A DNA stretch of 25,301 nt from a virus, in UHGV virus genome UHGV-0254345. The stretch is one strand, 5' to 3'. Shown one piece after another: positions 1 through 11,505 of the stretch. Made by a program: the position numbers and the translations under genes. Numbering within the stretch: the stretch's first letter is position 1; the number at the start of each line of letters is the position of its first letter. The notes beneath the pieces were generated by a model that was given only the letters and a program-made list of their open reading frames with translations, was not told the DNA's origin and ran no database searches.

Positions 1-2
1 AG

Positions 3-218
3 TTAAGAAAGCGTCCTGATTTCCTTGTCTGGCTCTGTGAAAAGCTGGGGGTAATGAGAATCCCCTCCATGTTTAACATGGACTCCTGGTGGACCCCGTC
101 GCTCTCCCGTGATGCCCTGTGCGTGGTGTTTAAAGTAGGCGCTTATGGCAGGGAAATAAAAGGGGGTATTCCTGAAGAATGCCAGGAGATTAAACATTCT
201 GAATATGTGGCGCTGACG
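3..218 (+). CDS. 3' end of an upstream gene (hypothetical protein, partial)
   Basis: Open frame from window edge to TAA at 216-218 (…GREIKGGIPEECQEIKHSEYVALTEE*); not in ORF track because it lacks an in-window start; protein-like composition; same strand as downstream operon. Confidence 0.3.
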
Positions 219-230
219 GAGGAATAATTC

Positions 231-578
231 ATGATTGATGCAAAAGTGCTTGAAGGGGTTAAAAACTGGCTGAGTATTTACGGGCGTCTGACCTGCGGCA
301 TTCTGGCTGAAAAAATGAATATGCCGCCATCCTCGATGGTTTATTTTCTGCGTGATGCGGTCGATGCCGGGGTGCTGACGGAATGTAACGGTTTTTATGA
401 TATTCCGCGTCCCCGCCCGGTGCAGCCGGTTCGTCGCAAATGCAGCCAGGAAGGTGCGGCTGATGATGTTCAGTGGTGCAGCTTCAGAAAATCCCTGCCG
501 TGGATTGAGGGGCATGATATTCCGTCAATGGCGTGGGAATTTGCTCAGGGCGTTCTGACCTGTATTTGTCCTCCGTAA
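231..578 (+). CDS. putative HTH DNA-binding protein, probably C-terminally truncated by rearrangement
   Basis: ATG at 231 preceded by GGAGG (about 9 nt upstream); N-terminal helix-turn-helix-like segment; last 13 in-frame residues SMAWEFAQGVLTC are encoded by repeat A (521-563), then a 4-codon tail (ICPP) ends inside repeat B. Confidence 0.5.
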   Translation: MIDAKVLEGVKNWLSIYGRLTCGILAEKMNMPPSSMVYFLRDAVDAGVLTECNGFYDIPRPRPVQPVRRKCSQEGAADDVQWCSFRKSLPWIEGHDIPSMAWEFAQGVLTCICPP

Positions 579-747
579 AACGCAGTCCCTTAAAACAAAA
601 ACCACTGATACTGAATTCAAATACCGACCGGCACGCAACATTCAGCACGGCCTCAAGGCGTTTCGCCTCATCCTTAACTTTCTGGCAGTCCTGCTGATAT
701 TTTTGCCACGCGGCCAGCGCGGAAGGGTTTGATGTTTTAAAGAACAT
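484..747 (-). CDS. hypothetical protein; N-terminal part looks like the displaced 5' half of a gene (fused via repeat B to an out-of-frame tail)
   Basis: Minus-strand ATG (plus 745-747) preceded by GGAGG about 8 nt upstream on the minus strand, overlapping the stop of the upstream minus ORF as TAATG; contains repeat-B-encoded peptide FEFSISGFCFKGLRFTEDKY. Confidence 0.4.
   Translation of the reverse strand: MFFKTSNPSALAAWQKYQQDCQKVKDEAKRLEAVLNVACRSVFEFSISGFCFKGLRFTEDKYRSERPEQIPTPLTEYHAPQSTAGIF
521..563. repeat. inverted repeat A (43 bp), partner at 948-990
   Basis: tccgtcaatggcgtgggaatttgctcagggcgttctgacctgt is the exact reverse complement of 948-990 by direct comparison. Confidence 0.9.
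564..619. repeat. inverted repeat B (56 bp), partner at 991-1046
   Basis: atttgtcctccgtaaaacgcagtcccttaaaacaaaaaccactgatactgaattca is the exact reverse complement of 991-1046; abuts repeat A. Confidence 0.9.
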
Positions 748-983
748 TACGCCACCTCCGCAGATATCCCGGCAGGCGCGGCCGTCCGGTCAACAATCAG
801 GTAACGCAGAACGCGCGAGGTGATATTCCAGCCGCTTAAACCGCAGATAATGACACCCAGGCGTATGTCGATATACGCCATCACAAACCGGGGCACGCCT
901 TCTTTCATGGCCTGCTCATCAACTTCAGCCACCACATAAACGGTTTCACAGGTCAGAACGCCCTGAGCAAATTCCCACGCCAT
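747..983 (-). CDS. hypothetical protein fragment; looks like the displaced 3' half of the gene at 231-578
   Basis: Begins MAWEFAQGVLTC (encoded by repeat A' in the same frame as in ORF 231-578); no clear SD before its ATG; stop overlaps next minus ORF start. Confidence 0.35.
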   Translation of the reverse strand: MAWEFAQGVLTCETVYVVAEVDEQAMKEGVPRFVMAYIDIRLGVIICGLSGWNITSRVLRYLIVDRTAAPAGISAEVA

Positions 984-990
984 TGACGGA
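948..990. repeat. inverted repeat A' (reverse complement of 521-563)
   Basis: Exact 43-bp reverse-complement match. Confidence 0.9.
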
Positions 991-1378
991 TGAATTCAGT
1001 ATCAGTGGTTTTTGTTTTAAGGGACTGCGTTTTACGGAGGACAAATATCCTTTTCATCGCGACTTATGGCGAAAACCGACTGCGTCGAATGGCTGGAGCT
1101 GCACGCCGCGCACATCGCGCATTCCCAAAGCCCTGCGCACTGCCTCTGACGAACTGAACAGTCTGTGGCGTGAATATTCGCCCGTCACGTATGCCAGAAC
1201 CGATGCCCTGTTGTTCTGGCTGGGCATTGATTTCTCAGCAATCCTGTATGGCCCTGTGGAGTGGTTCTGCGTTGACGATGTGATTTATCTTCAGTGCGGT
1301 GTAAAACCCGCAAATCAGAAAATGACCGAAATTCTGTCTGATGAGTTTTATGCTGCTGAAAAGCGAGTCAGGGGGTGA
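983..1378 (+). pseudogene. hypothetical protein lacking its native 5' end (start only via TTG, no SD)
   Basis: Frame is open from 854; first candidate start is TTG 983 with no RBS; N-terminal 20 aa duplicate the repeat-B peptide of the minus ORF 484-747; ends 3 nt before the next gene. Confidence 0.4.
991..1046. repeat. inverted repeat B' (reverse complement of 564-619)
   Basis: Exact 56-bp reverse-complement match (a 57th base may also match). Confidence 0.9.
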
Positions 1379-1381
1379 TGC

Positions 1382-1933
1382 ATGATGAAATTACAACCCA
1401 TGGGGCGAAAAGGTCGTGCACCTGCTCATGTCCGCCCGTGGACACCTGAAGAAGATGCGCTGCTGATTGCGCTTTATTCCTCCACCCCGGTTAAGGATAT
1501 TGCCGCCAGAATAAAAAGAAGTGTCTGGGCCGTATATAACCGGACTGGCGTATTGCGCAGTACATACCCGGAGTTGCTGAAATATAAACGACCGCGATTT
1601 ACACCTGATGAAGATAAATTTATCCGAAAAAATGCCCGGACAATGACCTGCCAGCAAATGGGGGATTATCTCGGACGTAATAAAGACTCTGTCAGGTGCC
1701 GCGCAGGAATGATTGGTGCCGGATTAACAAAGTGCGGTGAGTTACGCCCCGGCACACGTATATCTGATGAGGATGTTCGTCTTATACGTGCACTACGGGA
1801 TTCCGATTACCCTCGCCGTCTGTCATTCCGGGAAATTGGCGAAAAGTTTGGCATATCTGAACATTCTGCTCACGCTGTTTATTACCGTCGACGGACCGCC
1901 GAGGACGCTGTATTACGGGAGTTAACGCCATGA
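1382..1933 (+). CDS. putative DNA-binding protein with tandem Myb/SANT-like HTH repeats
   Basis: GGGGG SD-like run upstream of ATG; three repeats of a W/F-T-P-(E/D)-ED…L-like motif (PWTPEEDALL, RFTPDEDKFI, ISDEDVRLI) typical of Myb/SANT-type helix-turn-helix domains; stop overlaps next start (ATGA). Confidence 0.5.
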   Translation: MMKLQPMGRKGRAPAHVRPWTPEEDALLIALYSSTPVKDIAARIKRSVWAVYNRTGVLRSTYPELLKYKRPRFTPDEDKFIRKNARTMTCQQMGDYLGRNKDSVRCRAGMIGAGLTKCGELRPGTRISDEDVRLIRALRDSDYPRRLSFREIGEKFGISEHSAHAVYYRRRTAEDAVLRELTP

Positions 1934-2115
1934 TAAAGAGACTTGTATTTTTCGCAATTATCGTTCCAGTGTGGGGGACTGGTTTTATATTTGCGATTAC
2001 AGGAAACCTGTCCATTATGCCTGACATTTGGTTCTTTATCAGGATGTCGCTCTTCCTGTTTATTATGGATTTTCTCATCGGTATATACATTCGTATTTCC
2101 GGGAGGCGTAAATGA
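1930..2115 (+). CDS. small membrane protein (two predicted TM helices), hypothetical
   Basis: ATGA overlap with upstream stop; 61 aa, very hydrophobic (LVFFAIIVPVWGTGFIFAI… / MSLFLFIMDFLIGIYI); lies in AT-rich segment. Confidence 0.45.
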   Translation: MIKRLVFFAIIVPVWGTGFIFAITGNLSIMPDIWFFIRMSLFLFIMDFLIGIYIRISGRRK

Positions 2116-2486
2116 GAAAAATCACGTCCTTGTCAGAGTTACAGGAGATGAATATGAGCATTGAATTAAGAACGTCTTATGAATATCGTAAAATTCTTAT
2201 CGCCGGAGGTATGAAACCGGAAGATGCGGAAAAAATCGTTTCTTTTATGGATAAAGAATGTGACAAACGGGATGTGCCAGAAATTATTATGGATGACATG
2301 ATTCTGGATTCAGCCGTAGCGTTAAGTCCGTTATGGATTGTGCATTCTCTTGCAGAAATTGCCAGAGGCACCGATAAAATGGCTGCTGTTGCTGCCCTTC
2401 AGACGCTTAATGAAATGCGTATATCTCCACGCCCGACATTAATACATATGATTCTGTCCAGCATGGAGGATAAAGCTAATGAATAG
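2112..2486 (+). CDS. hypothetical protein (acidic, soluble)
   Basis: ATGA overlap with upstream stop; 124-aa ORF in AT-rich segment; no recognised motif. Confidence 0.45.
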   Translation: MRKITSLSELQEMNMSIELRTSYEYRKILIAGGMKPEDAEKIVSFMDKECDKRDVPEIIMDDMILDSAVALSPLWIVHSLAEIARGTDKMAAVAALQTLNEMRISPRPTLIHMILSSMEDKANE

Positions 2487-2676
2487 TCTACCCGCTGGAT
2501 GGGCGCGGCCATTGATGGCTAAGAAGCATCATTTTTTTAAAACAGGTGAAAATATCAGTATATGTGGGCGGTGGTTATATCTGGCTCATAATCGCGAGCC
2601 GGATACATTTGAAAGCCCTGATGACTGTGCCGAATGCCGCAGAAGACTGAATAAGGAGAAAGATAATGGACAGTAG
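2479..2676 (+). CDS. small hypothetical protein, possible Cys-containing metal-binding motif
   Basis: Overlaps upstream stop; 65 aa with ICGRW…DDCAEC spacing; weakly supported. Confidence 0.35.
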   Translation: MNSLPAGWARPLMAKKHHFFKTGENISICGRWLYLAHNREPDTFESPDDCAECRRRLNKEKDNGQ

Positions 2677-2962
2677 TTCGCAGTTGTTCTGGTGTTTATA
2701 TATCACATCGTTTTTCGGTGCATTCGTCATTACACGATGGCTGTGCCGGAAAGTTATCAGTATTTTTCATAAAAAATACCTGATTGGGCTGGCGGCGGCT
2801 TCTCTGATTAATGCACTTGCCAGATATCATAAGGGGGAATACTACTCAAGAATAAAAACTGTTGATGGTTTTAATATTTTTGTGATTCCTCCGGAGTATC
2901 GGGTTCAGCTCGATCGGGAAAATAATATCTATCATATCAGCAGGAGTGTTGATACAGCATGA
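2666..2962 (+). CDS. hypothetical protein with N-terminal TM segment
   Basis: Overlaps upstream stop and its own stop overlaps the gemA-like start (ATGA); hydrophobic N-terminus LFWCLYITSFFGAFVI. Confidence 0.45.
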   Translation: MDSSSQLFWCLYITSFFGAFVITRWLCRKVISIFHKKYLIGLAAASLINALARYHKGEYYSRIKTVDGFNIFVIPPEYRVQLDRENNIYHISRSVDTA

Positions 2963-3468
2963 GAGGGAAACTGATATCCGCCATTCATGTGGCAAAGCGC
3001 GAGCTTGCCCTGGATGATGAAACCTATACATTCGTTCTGCTGGCAGCCACCGGCAAATCCAGTTGCCGGGATATGTCACCGGATGAGTTATCCCGCGTGC
3101 TGGATGTTTTCAAAAAACGCGGTTTTAAAGTGCGTCAGAAACCGGTTAACCGGGCCTTAAAACCGGGTACGGTGACCGCCAAAATTCGCGCCATCTGGAA
3201 GGTAATGCACCGGCAGGGCTTTATCGCTGATGGCGGGGAAACGGCCCTTAACCGCTGGGTGAAGTCGCAGACGGCCGCGCAGAACGGTGGCGAAGGTGTG
3301 GCTAACTGGCAGTGGCTGGAGCAACACCCCGCACTGGCCTCGGATGTGCTGGAGCGTCTCAAACGCTGGCACCGTCGCAAGATGCTGGATGTGCTGGGGA
3401 TGTCAGCGCGTACAGTGATGAGTTATGAGCGCGTTTGCAGGCTGTATGAAGAATTCTCCCCTTTTTAA
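2959..3468 (+). CDS. gemA: GemA-like regulatory protein (Mu gp16 family)
   Basis: 169 aa; N-terminal MRGKLISAIHVAKRELALDDETY… resembles the GemA/gp16 family as remembered; position immediately upstream of the Mor/C activator matches Mu-like synteny. Confidence 0.6.
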   Translation: MRGKLISAIHVAKRELALDDETYTFVLLAATGKSSCRDMSPDELSRVLDVFKKRGFKVRQKPVNRALKPGTVTAKIRAIWKVMHRQGFIADGGETALNRWVKSQTAAQNGGEGVANWQWLEQHPALASDVLERLKRWHRRKMLDVLGMSARTVMSYERVCRLYEEFSPF

Positions 3469-3472
3469 CCCC

Positions 3473-3503
3473 AAATCCCGCCACAGCGCGGGATTTTTAT
3501 TTT
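3473..3503 (+). terminator. rho-independent terminator
   Basis: 9-bp perfect stem AAATCCCGC / GCGGGATTT (3473-3481 / 3488-3496), 6-nt loop, followed by TTATTTT; sits 5 nt after the gemA-like stop. Confidence 0.7.
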
Positions 3504-3538
3504 AAACTTGCCCTGTGTAATGATGACCGGAGGCGGGT

Positions 3539-3961
3539 ATGGCTGAAACACAGATGAGCATGTTTGGTGACAGCGAACAGCTGCACGCGCTGATTGACCG
3601 TCTGGATGATATTCCTGATGATGAGCTGAAAAAGAACTGGCCCGGCACGCTGCGTGACCTGGTTGATGTGATCAGTGCTGAACTGCACCGTCAGGGGATT
3701 GAATCTGCTCAGGCGGGAATGCTTGCCCGTAAGGTTGCGGCCGCACAGGCCGGGTACATGGGCGGGCGTGGTTATTATCTCCCGGTCGGTGAATCCCTTT
3801 TCACCGAACTGCGCAATAATGAGATTTTTTCCCGCTGGAGCCAGGGTGAAAAAATTGAAACCCTGCGCCGCCATTACCAGATGTCAGAGACGCAGATTTA
3901 CTCCGTTATCCGCAACCAGCGTCGCCTGCATCAGGAGCGCACGCAGCCCCGGCTTTTCTGA
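3539..3961 (+). CDS. Mor/C-family transcriptional activator of late genes
   Basis: 140 aa; GGAGG 8 nt upstream of ATG; Mor/C-like C-terminal region; located directly upstream of the endolysin as C is in Mu. Confidence 0.75.
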   Translation: MAETQMSMFGDSEQLHALIDRLDDIPDDELKKNWPGTLRDLVDVISAELHRQGIESAQAGMLARKVAAAQAGYMGGRGYYLPVGESLFTELRNNEIFSRWSQGEKIETLRRHYQMSETQIYSVIRNQRRLHQERTQPRLF

Positions 3962-4032
3962 TATTCCGCAAATCCTGCCCCCTTTTTTCCACGGTTACGC
4001 TGGCTCAGAGAACACCATGAGACAGCGTAACA

Positions 4033-11422: not shown

Positions 11423-11505
11423 CGGTCAGTGGCGGGGGTCGAACCCGCATACATGATCCACCCGGAGGCAGGCACCGACTTTACCAGTTAAGCGTACACT
11501 GACCG
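11423..11505 (-). other. tRNA-like structured element (acceptor-like stem plus canonical T-arm; no anticodon arm found)
   Basis: On the minus strand: 9-bp perfect stem (11423-11431 with 11497-11505) stacked on a 5-bp stem GCGGG/CCCGC closing a 7-nt loop TTCGACC (T-loop-like); a D-arm-like hairpin with GG loop is possible; hand search found no 5-bp anticodon stem. Confidence 0.3.

What the first reader, a model, noticed from the sequence alone, without database searches (positions are those of the whole stretch)
1382..1933. Tandem Myb/SANT-like HTH repeat protein in a phage early operon
The 183-aa protein contains three spaced copies of a W/F-T-P-(E/D)-ED-x-x-(L/I) motif each followed by basic/aromatic residues, the pattern of Myb/SANT-type DNA-binding repeats. 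Such tandem-repeat DNA binders are unusual among small phage regulators and it sits immediately upstream of the AT-rich cassette, so it may regulate or act with it.
Basis: inference. Interest (0 to 1): 0.45.

Follow-up and report, generated by a model that had tools for sequence, protein, structure and literature searches.

The report
Three-repeat Myb-like phage DNA-binding protein
This early gene of a Mu-like E. coli prophage encodes a small, basic DNA-binding protein built from three Myb-like helix-turn-helix repeats; it belongs to a widespread phage family that also holds the T5 D5 protein and Mu gp9, so it is real but fairly ordinary.

Summary
Window 1382-1933 (+) is a 183-aa ORF with WTPEED at residue 20, FTPDED at 73 and a weaker ISDED at 127. 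The three ~53-aa units are homologous (hhalign R1-R2 P=1e-15, R2-R3 P=3e-7). AlphaFold2 (pLDDT 86.5) gives three three-helix bundles plus a C-terminal helix.

The Myb reading is not new: RefSeq already names the identical protein "SANT/Myb-like DNA-binding domain-containing protein". It is also not rare. It belongs to PHROG 323 (E=2.5e-53), together with the T5 gene D5 DNA-binding protein (all three repeats align) and phage Mu gp9 (a two-repeat form).

Relatives occupy a fixed slot after the gp12 homologue in Mu-like prophages, and the early operon upstream of gpA in P2-like prophages.

The suggested link to the downstream low-GC cassette is not supported, because that cassette is shuffled independently of the gene.

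The three recognition helices are the most variable parts. They are conserved within a lineage and differ between lineages, which suggests lineage-specific DNA targets.

Most likely role, by inference: a D5-like early accessory DNA binder that modulates transcription or replication. Interest is low to moderate.

The parts
1382..1933 (+). ORF of 183 aa (21 kDa, pI 10.1): three-repeat Myb-like HTH DNA-binding protein, identical to RefSeq WP_000977064.1
   Evidence: homologues; dN/dS 0.04-0.10 within the allele group
1371..1376 (+). Shine-Dalgarno-like GGGGGT, 6-11 nt upstream of the ATG. The upstream ORF's stop codon (1376-1378) lies 3 nt before the start, so the genes are packed as in an operon.
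   Evidence: read directly from the sequence
1382..1435 (+). Basic N-terminal arm (residues 1-18; 5 K/R, no acidic residues). The family motif is L-x-P-M-G-x-x-G-x-C-P-A-H-x-R. Model confidence here is low.
1436..1573 (+). Repeat 1 (residues 19-64): WTPEED motif; helices 22-31, 37-44 and 48-61. This is the most Myb-like unit, and W20 is invariant in the family.
1574..1735 (+). Repeat 2 (residues 65-118): FTPDED motif; helices 75-84, 90-97 and 101-111. It aligns to c-Myb R3 and to repeat 1 of Mu gp9.
1736..1894 (+). Repeat 3 (residues 119-171): degenerate ISDED motif; helices 129-140, 149-156 and 160-169. It is a generic HTH (Pfam HTH_AsnC-type, HTH_10, HTH_38 and Sigma70_r4 sub-threshold hits) but is homologous to repeat 2.
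1895..1930 (+). Conserved acidic C-terminal helix and tail (residues 172-183; family motif R-x-T-A-x-D-A-I-A-R-E-x-L-P, with the last proline invariant). A protein-contact role is possible but is only an inference.
1930..1933 (+). ATGA overlap: the stop codon of this gene overlaps the start codon of the next ORF (61 aa, hydrophobic).
1930..2962 (+). Context only: a low-GC (39-44%) cassette of four small ORFs of unknown function (the second, third and fourth match PHROGs 1988, 2358 and 17269; the first, 61 aa, has no match). Its content is mosaic among related prophages and is not coupled to the gene.
3473..3496 (+). Context only: a terminator-like hairpin followed by a T-run after the GemA homologue. 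It marks the probable end of the early transcription unit that contains the gene.

Best explanation
The gene encodes an accessory early DNA-binding protein of a Mu-like (com/mom-bearing) E. coli prophage.

Shown here:
- The protein is a string of three homologous three-helix HTH units of the Myb/SANT (homeodomain-like) type.
- These units are flanked by a basic N-terminal arm and a conserved acidic C-terminal helix.
- It is a member of PHROG 323. That family also holds the phage T5 gene D5 protein, which has the same three repeats, and phage Mu gp9, which has two repeats.

Inferred mechanism:
- One polypeptide places three recognition helices (the third helix of each unit) in successive major grooves, in the way c-Myb R2R3 and other tandem-HTH proteins do. 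It would therefore read an extended, asymmetric DNA site.
- The recognition helices are held constant within a phage lineage but differ strongly between lineages. The target is therefore probably sequence-specific and lineage-specific.
- The closest studied relative, T5 D5, is a DNA-binding protein needed for DNA replication and late transcription. By analogy, and given the position in the early operon, this protein most likely modulates transcription and/or replication of phage or host DNA early in lytic growth.
- It is a dispensable helper, not the core regulator. Mor fills that role here.
For: Fold and repeats:
- Internal repeat P-values are 1e-15 and 3e-7.
- The AlphaFold2 model has pLDDT 86.5 and shows three three-helix bundles.
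- The family profile matches c-Myb R2R3 at E=5.7e-7 over residues 18-106.
- Pfam Myb families are hit by 54-63 of 120 homologues.
- The protein has pI 10.1 and carries 37 K/R residues.

Family:
- PHROG 323 'transcriptional regulator, D5-like', E=2.5e-53.
- T5 D5 is in PHROG 323 (1.2e-71) and aligns over all three repeats (hhalign 96.9%, E=1.8e-10).
- The GenBank note for T5.118 reads 'DNA-binding protein; required for DNA replication and late transcription'.
- Mu gp9 aligns to repeats 2-3 (98.2%, E=4.5e-14) and is in PHROG 323 (5e-29).

Early-operon setting:
- In about 45 Mu-like loci the gene sits directly after the gp12 homologue and before GemA and Mor.
- In 37 P2-like loci it sits in the early operon upstream of gpA.

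Specific recognition:
- The third helices are the most variable segments, with entropy 2.2-2.45 bits against 0.74-1.3 for the scaffold and tails.
- Within an allele group, dN/dS in the third helices is 0.04. Between allele groups it is 0.41-0.62, against 0.11-0.13 for the scaffold.
Against: - No DNA target, promoter or partner was identified, so the functional step rests on analogy with T5 D5. That protein shares only about 28% identity in a profile alignment and carries an extra 70-residue N-terminal part.
- T5 D5 is essential in a virulent phage. This gene lies in a region of Mu that is dispensable for growth (my own knowledge of Mu biology, not tested here).
- This protein is just below Pfam's Myb gathering score (23.6 against 24.4 bits).
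- Whole-chain Foldseek against the PDB gives no hit with E<1e-3, because the relative placement of the three domains is not fixed.
- Variable recognition helices could also mean low constraint on non-specific binding. The within-lineage dN/dS argues against that reading.
Confidence: 0.6

Rival explanations
1. One reading: the protein is the dedicated regulator or working partner of the AT-rich cassette immediately downstream (1930-2962), as anti-CRISPR-associated HTH repressors are for their cargo genes.
For: The gene abuts the cassette, and its stop overlaps the first cassette ORF's start. The cassette is compositionally distinct, at GC 39-44%.
Against: - Prophages whose copy of the gene is 95-97% identical lack most or all of the four cassette ORFs (for example L023 and L022).
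- Prophages whose copy is only 72-73% identical carry the same cassette at 93-97% identity (L041, L044, L048, L049).
- The distance from the gene to GemA ranges from 0.6 to 2.3 kb, with different content.
- P2-like and T5 relatives have unrelated neighbours.
- No promoter-like signal above the shuffled expectation lies between the gene and the cassette.
Confidence: 0.08
2. A non-specific, cooperative duplex-DNA-coating protein (nucleoid-protein-like). It would cover phage or host DNA without a defined site, as was reported for purified T5 D5 (from memory of the 1979 biochemical literature; not read here).
For: - It is homologous to T5 D5.
- It is very basic, pI 10.1.
- The recognition helices are poorly conserved across the family.
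- D5 was abundant enough to be detected by mass spectrometry in a T5-like phage preparation (PMC8624392).
Against: Within an allele group the third helices are under purifying selection as strong as the scaffold (dN/dS 0.04 at pS about 0.28). The change is concentrated between lineages. That is the pattern expected for switched specificity rather than relaxed constraint.
Confidence: 0.15
3. A partner or reader of DNA methylation. Like GcrA, which binds N6-methyladenine-marked promoters, it would read or direct phage-encoded methyltransferase activity.
For: - In P2-like prophages, 33 of 37 loci have a D12 (Dam-type) methyltransferase within about 1.5 kb, usually directly upstream with overlapping stop and start.
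- This gene is often followed there by a C5 methyltransferase or a PAPS-reductase-like gene.
- One form is fused to DUF4406.
Against: - The P2-like loci are one related lineage, so the association is not independent evidence.
- The Mu-like prophages, including this one, have no Dam- or C5-type methyltransferase gene next to the gene. The only DNA-modification module annotated in the whole element is com plus a gene at the mom position, at the far right end.
- The mycobacteriophage 'methylase' hit is an insertion that splits a C5 methylase gene next to an HNH endonuclease. It is therefore a homing-endonuclease module and not a methylase partner.
- Pfam GcrA is matched by only 4 of 120 homologues, and GcrA's sigma-70-binding C-terminal domain is absent.
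Confidence: 0.1
4. A leftover DNA-binding module of a homing endonuclease or transposase that has lost its catalytic domain and has no role of its own.
For: Related repeats occur in phage HNH and other endonucleases and in transposases (PHROG 1891, 6156 and 8446 weak hits; BFVD hits to endonucleases; HokkenD).
Against: - Purifying selection is strong (dN/dS 0.04-0.10).
- The 177-187-aa stand-alone architecture is conserved, with N- and C-terminal ends conserved across more than 100 clusters.
- The gene holds a fixed position in two phage types.
Confidence: 0.03
5. An AsnC/Lrp-family regulator, as many RefSeq homologues are labelled.
For: There is a sub-threshold Pfam HTH_AsnC-type hit on repeat 3 (19.7 bits against a cut-off of 27). 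Many homologues carry the name 'AsnC family protein'.
Against: The model is all-helical and has no alpha/beta RAM effector domain. The AsnC-type hit covers only an HTH of about 34 residues. The rest of the protein is Myb-like.
Confidence: 0.01

Closest known systems
Phage T5 gene D5 protein (T5.118, 255 aa; the type member of PHROG 323 'transcriptional regulator, D5-like')
   Same: It is in the same PHROG. All three repeats align (residues 18-169 to D5 residues 71-232, hhalign 96.9%, E=1.8e-10). It is an early-expressed phage DNA-binding protein; the GenBank note says it is required for DNA replication and late transcription. The title of McCorquodale et al. 1979, J Virol 29:322, is cited in PMC12630848.
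   Different: D5 has an extra N-terminal part of about 70 residues. It belongs to a virulent phage, where it is essential. Identity is only about 28% in a profile alignment. No function has been tested for the Mu-like protein.
Phage Mu gp9 (Mup09, formerly E8; 99 aa)
   Same: It is homologous to repeats 2-3 (hhalign 98.2%, E=4.5e-14), is in the same PHROG 323, and lies in the same early accessory region of a transposable phage.
   Different: It has two repeats instead of three and lacks the N-terminal arm and the C-terminal tail. It sits in a different slot, just before gam and not after gp12. In this prophage the slot before gam holds unrelated PHROGs. No literature on its function was found.
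Eukaryotic c-Myb R2R3 and SANT domains
   Different: The second and third tryptophans of the Myb triad are replaced by aliphatic residues. The helix 1-helix 2 loop is shorter. The third unit is a generic HTH. The protein is bacterial-viral, and it falls just under Pfam's Myb cut-off.
Caulobacter GcrA DNA-binding domain (PDB 5yiu)
   Different: GcrA has one DNA-binding domain plus a sigma-70-binding C-terminal domain. This protein has three DNA-binding units and no such domain.
Archaeal CRISPR repeat-binding protein (PDB 2lvs) and other tandem-HTH binders (Tc3 transposase, Pax paired domain)
   Same: These are single polypeptides with two or three linked small HTH units that read an extended DNA site. 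2lvs is the top Foldseek PDB hit and a sequence-profile hit (E=1.8e-4).
   Different: The similarity is weak (Foldseek E=0.03, TM 0.24-0.39). The biological setting is different. No CRISPR connection is seen here.
Myb-type HTH transcription factors of jumbo phages, related to the firmicute RsfA family
   Same: Myb-type HTH factors in phages have already been described (PMC7824862). Phage Goslar proteins appear among the structural matches.
   Different: Those are single- or few-repeat factors in very large virulent phages. A direct relationship was not tested here.

Membership tests
PHROG 323 (transcriptional regulator, D5-like) | Significant match to the family profile | tested here: met
   E=2.5e-53, 182.7 bits, residues 2-182 to profile positions 80-256. 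T5 D5 (1.2e-71) and Mu gp9 (5e-29) match the same profile.
PHROG 323 (transcriptional regulator, D5-like) | The same three-repeat core as the type protein T5 D5 | tested here: met
   hhalign aligns residues 18-169 with D5 residues 71-232, probability 96.9%, E=1.8e-10. The 70-residue N-terminal part of D5 is absent here.
PHROG 323 (transcriptional regulator, D5-like) | DNA binding, and an effect on replication or late transcription, as reported for T5 D5 | not testable with these tools
   This needs EMSA or ChIP and phage genetics. Only the GenBank note and a cited title were available for D5.
Myb/SANT (Pfam PF00249 / PF13921) | Score at or above Pfam's gathering cut-off | tested here: not met
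   This protein scores 23.6 bits against a cut-off of 24.4 (PF00249), and 17.4 against 22.9 (PF13921). Of 120 homologues, 54 and 63 match at E<=1e-3. The repeat-rich relative P0126 scores 140 bits.
Myb/SANT (Pfam PF00249 / PF13921) | Tandem repeats of about 50 aa, each a three-helix bundle with an HTH | tested here: met
Myb/SANT (Pfam PF00249 / PF13921) | Three regularly spaced tryptophans (or aromatic residues) forming the core of each repeat | tested here: not met
   Only the first position is kept: W20 is invariant in repeat 1, and repeat 2 of this protein has F73. In the alignment to c-Myb, the second and third Trp positions fall on V37 and T55. Repeat 3 has none.
GcrA family (PF07750) | An N-terminal GcrA-type DNA-binding domain plus a C-terminal sigma-70-interacting domain | tested here: not met
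AsnC/Lrp family | An N-terminal HTH plus a C-terminal alpha/beta RAM (effector-binding) domain | tested here: not met
   The model is all-helical, with no beta strands. Only a sub-threshold HTH_AsnC-type hit is found on residues 131-164 (19.7 bits against 27).
Sigma-70 family | Regions 2 and 4 with a family-level score | tested here: not met
   TIGR02937 scores 13.6 bits against a cut-off of 42.9. The Sigma70_r4 hits cover only the HTH of repeat 3.

The most novel reading that the evidence does not exclude
The three recognition helices act as a swappable specificity cassette. Each phage lineage would carry its own version of a three-HTH early protein, matched to its own DNA sites in the phage or the host. 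Such sites might involve the Mor-controlled switch or, in P2-like phages, methylated DNA made by the neighbouring Dam-type enzyme. That would make this family a so far unrecognised, lineage-specific layer of early gene or replication control, shared by Mu-like, P2-like and T5-like phages.
Probability: 0.12. Interest if true: 0.55.

Novelty: new member of a known kind. Interest (0 to 1): 0.27.

Why it matters
On its own this is an annotated, uncharacterised accessory gene. The useful result is the set of links made here:
- The RefSeq labels 'SANT/Myb-like' and 'AsnC family' applied to prophage proteins of E. coli and Salmonella, Mu gp9 (no known function) and the classical T5 D5 protein are one family built from the same repeat.
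- That gives a concrete starting hypothesis for two long-unassigned early genes of model phages.
- It shows that the 'AsnC family' labels are wrong.
- The pattern of recognition helices that are constant within a lineage but switched between lineages suggests specific DNA targets that could be found by a simple binding-site experiment.

Tried and rejected
1. A single-sequence search of PDB sequences gave only insignificant hits. The family profile was needed.
3. NCBIfam gave nothing useful.
4. The scan of genome contigs returned only one locus, because a single narrow peptide pattern was used.
5. The apparent link to DNA methylases in mycobacteriophages was rejected. The match lies in an insertion that splits a C5 methylase gene beside an HNH endonuclease.
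6. The AsnC-family and sigma-factor readings were rejected on domain architecture.
7. Literature searches for Myb-like proteins in prophages, for Mup09 and for T5.118 found no functional study. The 1979 D5 paper is not held.
8. A 14-mer association scan for flanking sequence that tracks the two gene alleles showed divergence confined to the gene, plus a partial association with the Mor region. That association cannot be separated from linkage.
9. The promoter scan showed no enrichment over shuffled sequence.
10. No attempt was made to predict the DNA target, because no method here can do that reliably.

Full report
**What is there**

Window 1382-1933 (+) is an ATG-started ORF of 183 aa. A GGGGG run lies 6-10 nt upstream of the start. 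The upstream ORF's stop codon lies 3 nt before the start codon, and the gene's own stop overlaps the next start (ATGA at 1930-1933). It is therefore a tightly packed operon gene.

The product is 21 kDa with pI 10.1. The third copy, R-ISDEDVRLI at residues 126-135, keeps only the acidic half.

**Where the window comes from**

The window matches Mu-like prophage DNA of E. coli. From position 991 onward it is 99.97-100% identical to the chromosome of strain FORC_069 and six other genomes.

In that record the element runs from a repressor/ner-like HTH gene, MuA and MuB through Gam, then homologues of Mu gp11 and gp12, this gene, four small ORFs, GemA, Mor, lysozyme and the structural genes. It ends with an invertase and com plus a gene at the mom position. 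The element is inserted in a fimbrial usher gene.

The gene therefore lies in the early accessory region. A strong terminator-like hairpin follows GemA at 3473-3496. RefSeq already calls the identical protein (WP_000977064.1) 'SANT/Myb-like DNA-binding domain-containing protein'. Diverged alleles are called 'AsnC family protein' or 'DNA-binding protein'.

**Is the repeat real?**

I collected 120 full-length homologues, cut the alignment into the three segments and compared the resulting profiles:
- R1 against R2: probability 98.6%, P=1.1e-15.
- R2 against R3: 93%, P=3.1e-7.
- R1 against R3: 56%, P=1.1e-4.

So there are three tandem homologous units, the third being the most diverged.

AlphaFold2 on this alignment gave mean pLDDT 86.5 and exactly three three-helix bundles, plus a C-terminal helix at 173-181:
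- Unit 1: helices 22-31, 37-44 and 48-61.
- Unit 2: helices 75-84, 90-97 and 101-111.
- Unit 3: helices 129-140, 149-156 and 160-169.

**What fold is it?**

- Pfam on the single protein gives Myb_DNA-binding at 23.6 bits, just below the 24.4-bit cut-off. Repeat 3 gets sub-threshold generic HTH hits (AsnC-type, HTH_10, HTH_38, Sigma70_r4).
- Across the family, 63 of 120 members match Myb_DNA-bind_6, 54 match Myb_DNA-binding and 69 match Sigma70_r4, the last in repeat 3.
- The family profile against PDB sequences finds c-Myb R2R3 at E=5.7e-7 in one stretch covering residues 18-106, that is repeats 1 and 2 aligned to R2 and R3. It also finds the archaeal CRISPR-repeat-binding protein 2lvs at E=1.8e-4.
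- Whole-chain Foldseek against the PDB is not significant, with 2lvs, SNAPc4, Tc3 and Pax as best hits. This is expected when three small domains have no fixed mutual orientation.
- The Myb tryptophan triad is not kept. Only W20 (invariant) survives in repeat 1. In the c-Myb alignment the other two positions fall on V37 and T55.

My conclusion is a Myb/SANT-like, homeodomain-like tandem HTH protein of the bacterial and phage kind. It is not a canonical Myb. It is not an AsnC/Lrp protein, because there is no RAM domain. It is not a GcrA orthologue, because there is no sigma-binding domain.

**Which phage family?**

PHROGs places the protein in phrog_323, 'transcriptional regulator, D5-like', at E=2.5e-53.

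The name refers to the gene D5 protein of phage T5. T5.118 matches phrog_323 at 1.2e-71. It aligns with this family over all three repeats: residues 18-169 against D5 residues 71-232, hhalign 96.9%, E=1.8e-10. Its GenBank note reads 'DNA-binding protein; required for DNA replication and late transcription; also is involved in shutoff of expression of ...'. The original paper (McCorquodale et al. 1979) could only be seen as a citation.

Phage Mu itself has a short member. Gp9 (Mup09, formerly E8, 99 aa), just upstream of gam, aligns to repeats 2-3 (98.2%, E=4.5e-14) and is in phrog_323 (5e-29). I found no paper on it.

The family is large. There are 9,719 cluster representatives at E<=1e-3. Many are long proteins with 4-9 copies of the repeat, one of them fused to an SNF2-type helicase and scoring 140 bits on Pfam Myb. 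There are also 34 matches at E<=1e-3 among predicted viral structures, including Goslar 'Myb-like' proteins, phage endonucleases and a Vibrio phage 'D5 protein'. Myb-type HTH factors in phages have been noted before (PMC7824862). So 'unusual' is not justified.

**Genomic context of relatives**

- Mu-like prophages of E. coli and Salmonella (51-100% identity, about 45 loci): the gene always directly follows the gp12 homologue. GemA follows 0.6-2.3 kb later.
- P2-like prophages of Salmonella, Hafnia and Citrobacter (39-48% identity, 37 loci): the gene lies in the early operon upstream of the gpA replication gene. In 33 of the 37 loci a D12 (Dam-type) methyltransferase lies close by. The gene is often followed by a C5 methyltransferase or a PAPS-reductase-like gene, and once it is fused to DUF4406.
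- Mycobacteriophages: the match to a 'DNA methylase' is an insertion that splits a C5 methylase gene next to an HNH endonuclease. It is a homing-endonuclease DNA-binding module.

**The AT-rich cassette**

The stretch 1930-2962 is indeed lower in GC, at 39-44%. It holds four small ORFs of unknown function.

Its content is mosaic. Prophages with a 95-97% identical copy of the gene lack most or all of the four ORFs, while prophages with a 72-73% identical copy carry the same cassette at 93-97% identity. The cassette and the gene recombine independently. That speaks against a dedicated functional pairing.

**How the protein evolves**

Per-segment entropy over 120 homologues shows that the third helix of each repeat is the most variable part, at 2.2-2.45 bits. 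The most conserved parts, at 0.74-1.3 bits, are the N-terminal arm, the first helices, helices 1-2 of repeat 3 and the C-terminal tail.

E. coli Mu-like prophages carry two forms of the gene, about 73% identical, inside flanks that are 90-97% identical. The divergence is confined to roughly 1490-1890.
- Within a form, dN/dS is 0.04-0.10, including the third helices.
- Between forms, the third helices have dN/dS 0.41-0.62, against 0.11-0.13 for the scaffold.

Recognition helices that are constant within a lineage and switched between lineages fit sequence-specific binding to lineage-specific targets. They fit relaxed constraint on a non-specific binder less well.

**Mechanism**

Shown: the protein is a basic, three-HTH member of the D5/gp9 family, expressed from an early operon and under purifying selection.

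Inferred:
- One chain lays three recognition helices along an extended asymmetric DNA site, as in c-Myb R2R3 and other tandem-HTH proteins.
- The basic N-terminal arm may add minor-groove or backbone contacts.
- The conserved acidic C-terminal tail may contact a protein partner.
- By analogy with T5 D5, the protein modulates transcription and/or replication early in lytic development. It is a helper, not the core switch, which here is Mor.

I put about 0.85 on the statement 'DNA-binding tandem Myb-like HTH of the D5/gp9 family'. I put about 0.35-0.4 on the D5-like physiological role. The overall figure given is 0.6.

**Rivals**

The rivals considered are a dedicated regulator of the cassette, a non-specific DNA coat, a methylation-linked reader, an endonuclease remnant and an AsnC-type regulator. 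Each is weighed in the rival-explanations section.

**Novelty and verdict**

The Myb/SANT reading is already in RefSeq, and the family is already a PHROG, so this is a new, uncharacterised member of a known kind. In the literature I could search, I found no statement of the links between this protein, Mu gp9 and T5 D5, or of the switched recognition helices. These points are modestly useful. Interest 0.27.

Noticed in passing
window 1-1047: Relative to the otherwise identical FORC_069 prophage, a 428-bp segment is inverted. Window 563-990 equals the reference read backwards, with 43-nt and 57-nt duplicated edges (inverted repeats 521-563/948-990 and 563-619/991-1047). This splits the gp12 homologue: its N-terminal part lies on the minus strand at 484-747 and its C-terminal part at 983-1378. 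It is either a fold-back assembly artefact near the start of the window or a real local inversion.
   Followed up: partly
window about 1490-1890, compared with loci L034-L054: Two allelic forms of the gene (about 73% aa identity) sit in flanks that are 90-97% identical. The differences pile up in the third helix of each repeat. dN/dS is 0.04 within a form and 0.41-0.62 between forms in those helices.
   Followed up: yes
window about 3390-3990 (GemA 3' end and Mor): The Mor region partly tracks the allele of the Myb-like gene. All form-A loci have a 140-aa Mor type. Most form-B loci have a 141-aa type, with three exceptions (L034, L037, L046). Linkage and co-adaptation cannot be told apart here.
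   Followed up: partly
P2-like loci L002-L004, L007, L010, L011, L058-L086: In P2-like prophages the homologue sits inside a cluster of DNA-modification genes: a D12 methyltransferase directly upstream, then a C5 methyltransferase or a PAPS-reductase-like gene downstream, followed by gpA. One variant (P0111) is fused to DUF4406.
   Followed up: partly
L008 7040-7987 (Salmonella Mu-like prophage): The variable cassette between the Myb-like gene and GemA carries a dATP/dGTP pyrophosphohydrolase-family gene (PF04447) in some Salmonella Mu-like prophages. This is an unusual cargo for that slot.
   Followed up: no
L096 4546-7332 (phage T5 T5.108) and metagenomic protein P0126: The T5 'replication origin binding' protein is annotated with SANT/Myb and helicase domains. 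P0126 is an SNF2-type helicase followed by about nine copies of the same Myb-like repeat. Helicase plus Myb-repeat fusions therefore recur in phage-like sequences.
   Followed up: no
L012 2004-3888 (Mycobacterium phage HokkenD gp111/gp112): A C5 DNA methylase gene is split: the N-terminal half is in gp111 and the C-terminal end in gp112. The insertion carries Myb-like repeats and lies next to an HNH endonuclease, which looks like a homing-endonuclease insertion.
   Followed up: partly
window about 11424-11503 (-): RefSeq annotates a 'tRNA-OTHER' between the head-morphogenesis and virion-morphogenesis genes of the identical prophage. ARAGORN finds no tRNA anywhere in the window.
   Followed up: partly
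window 3962-4032: Unlike Mu, there is no second Mor/C-type activator gene between Mor and the lysozyme gene. Mu has gp18-20 and C there. This suggests a shorter regulatory cascade in this prophage type.
   Followed up: no
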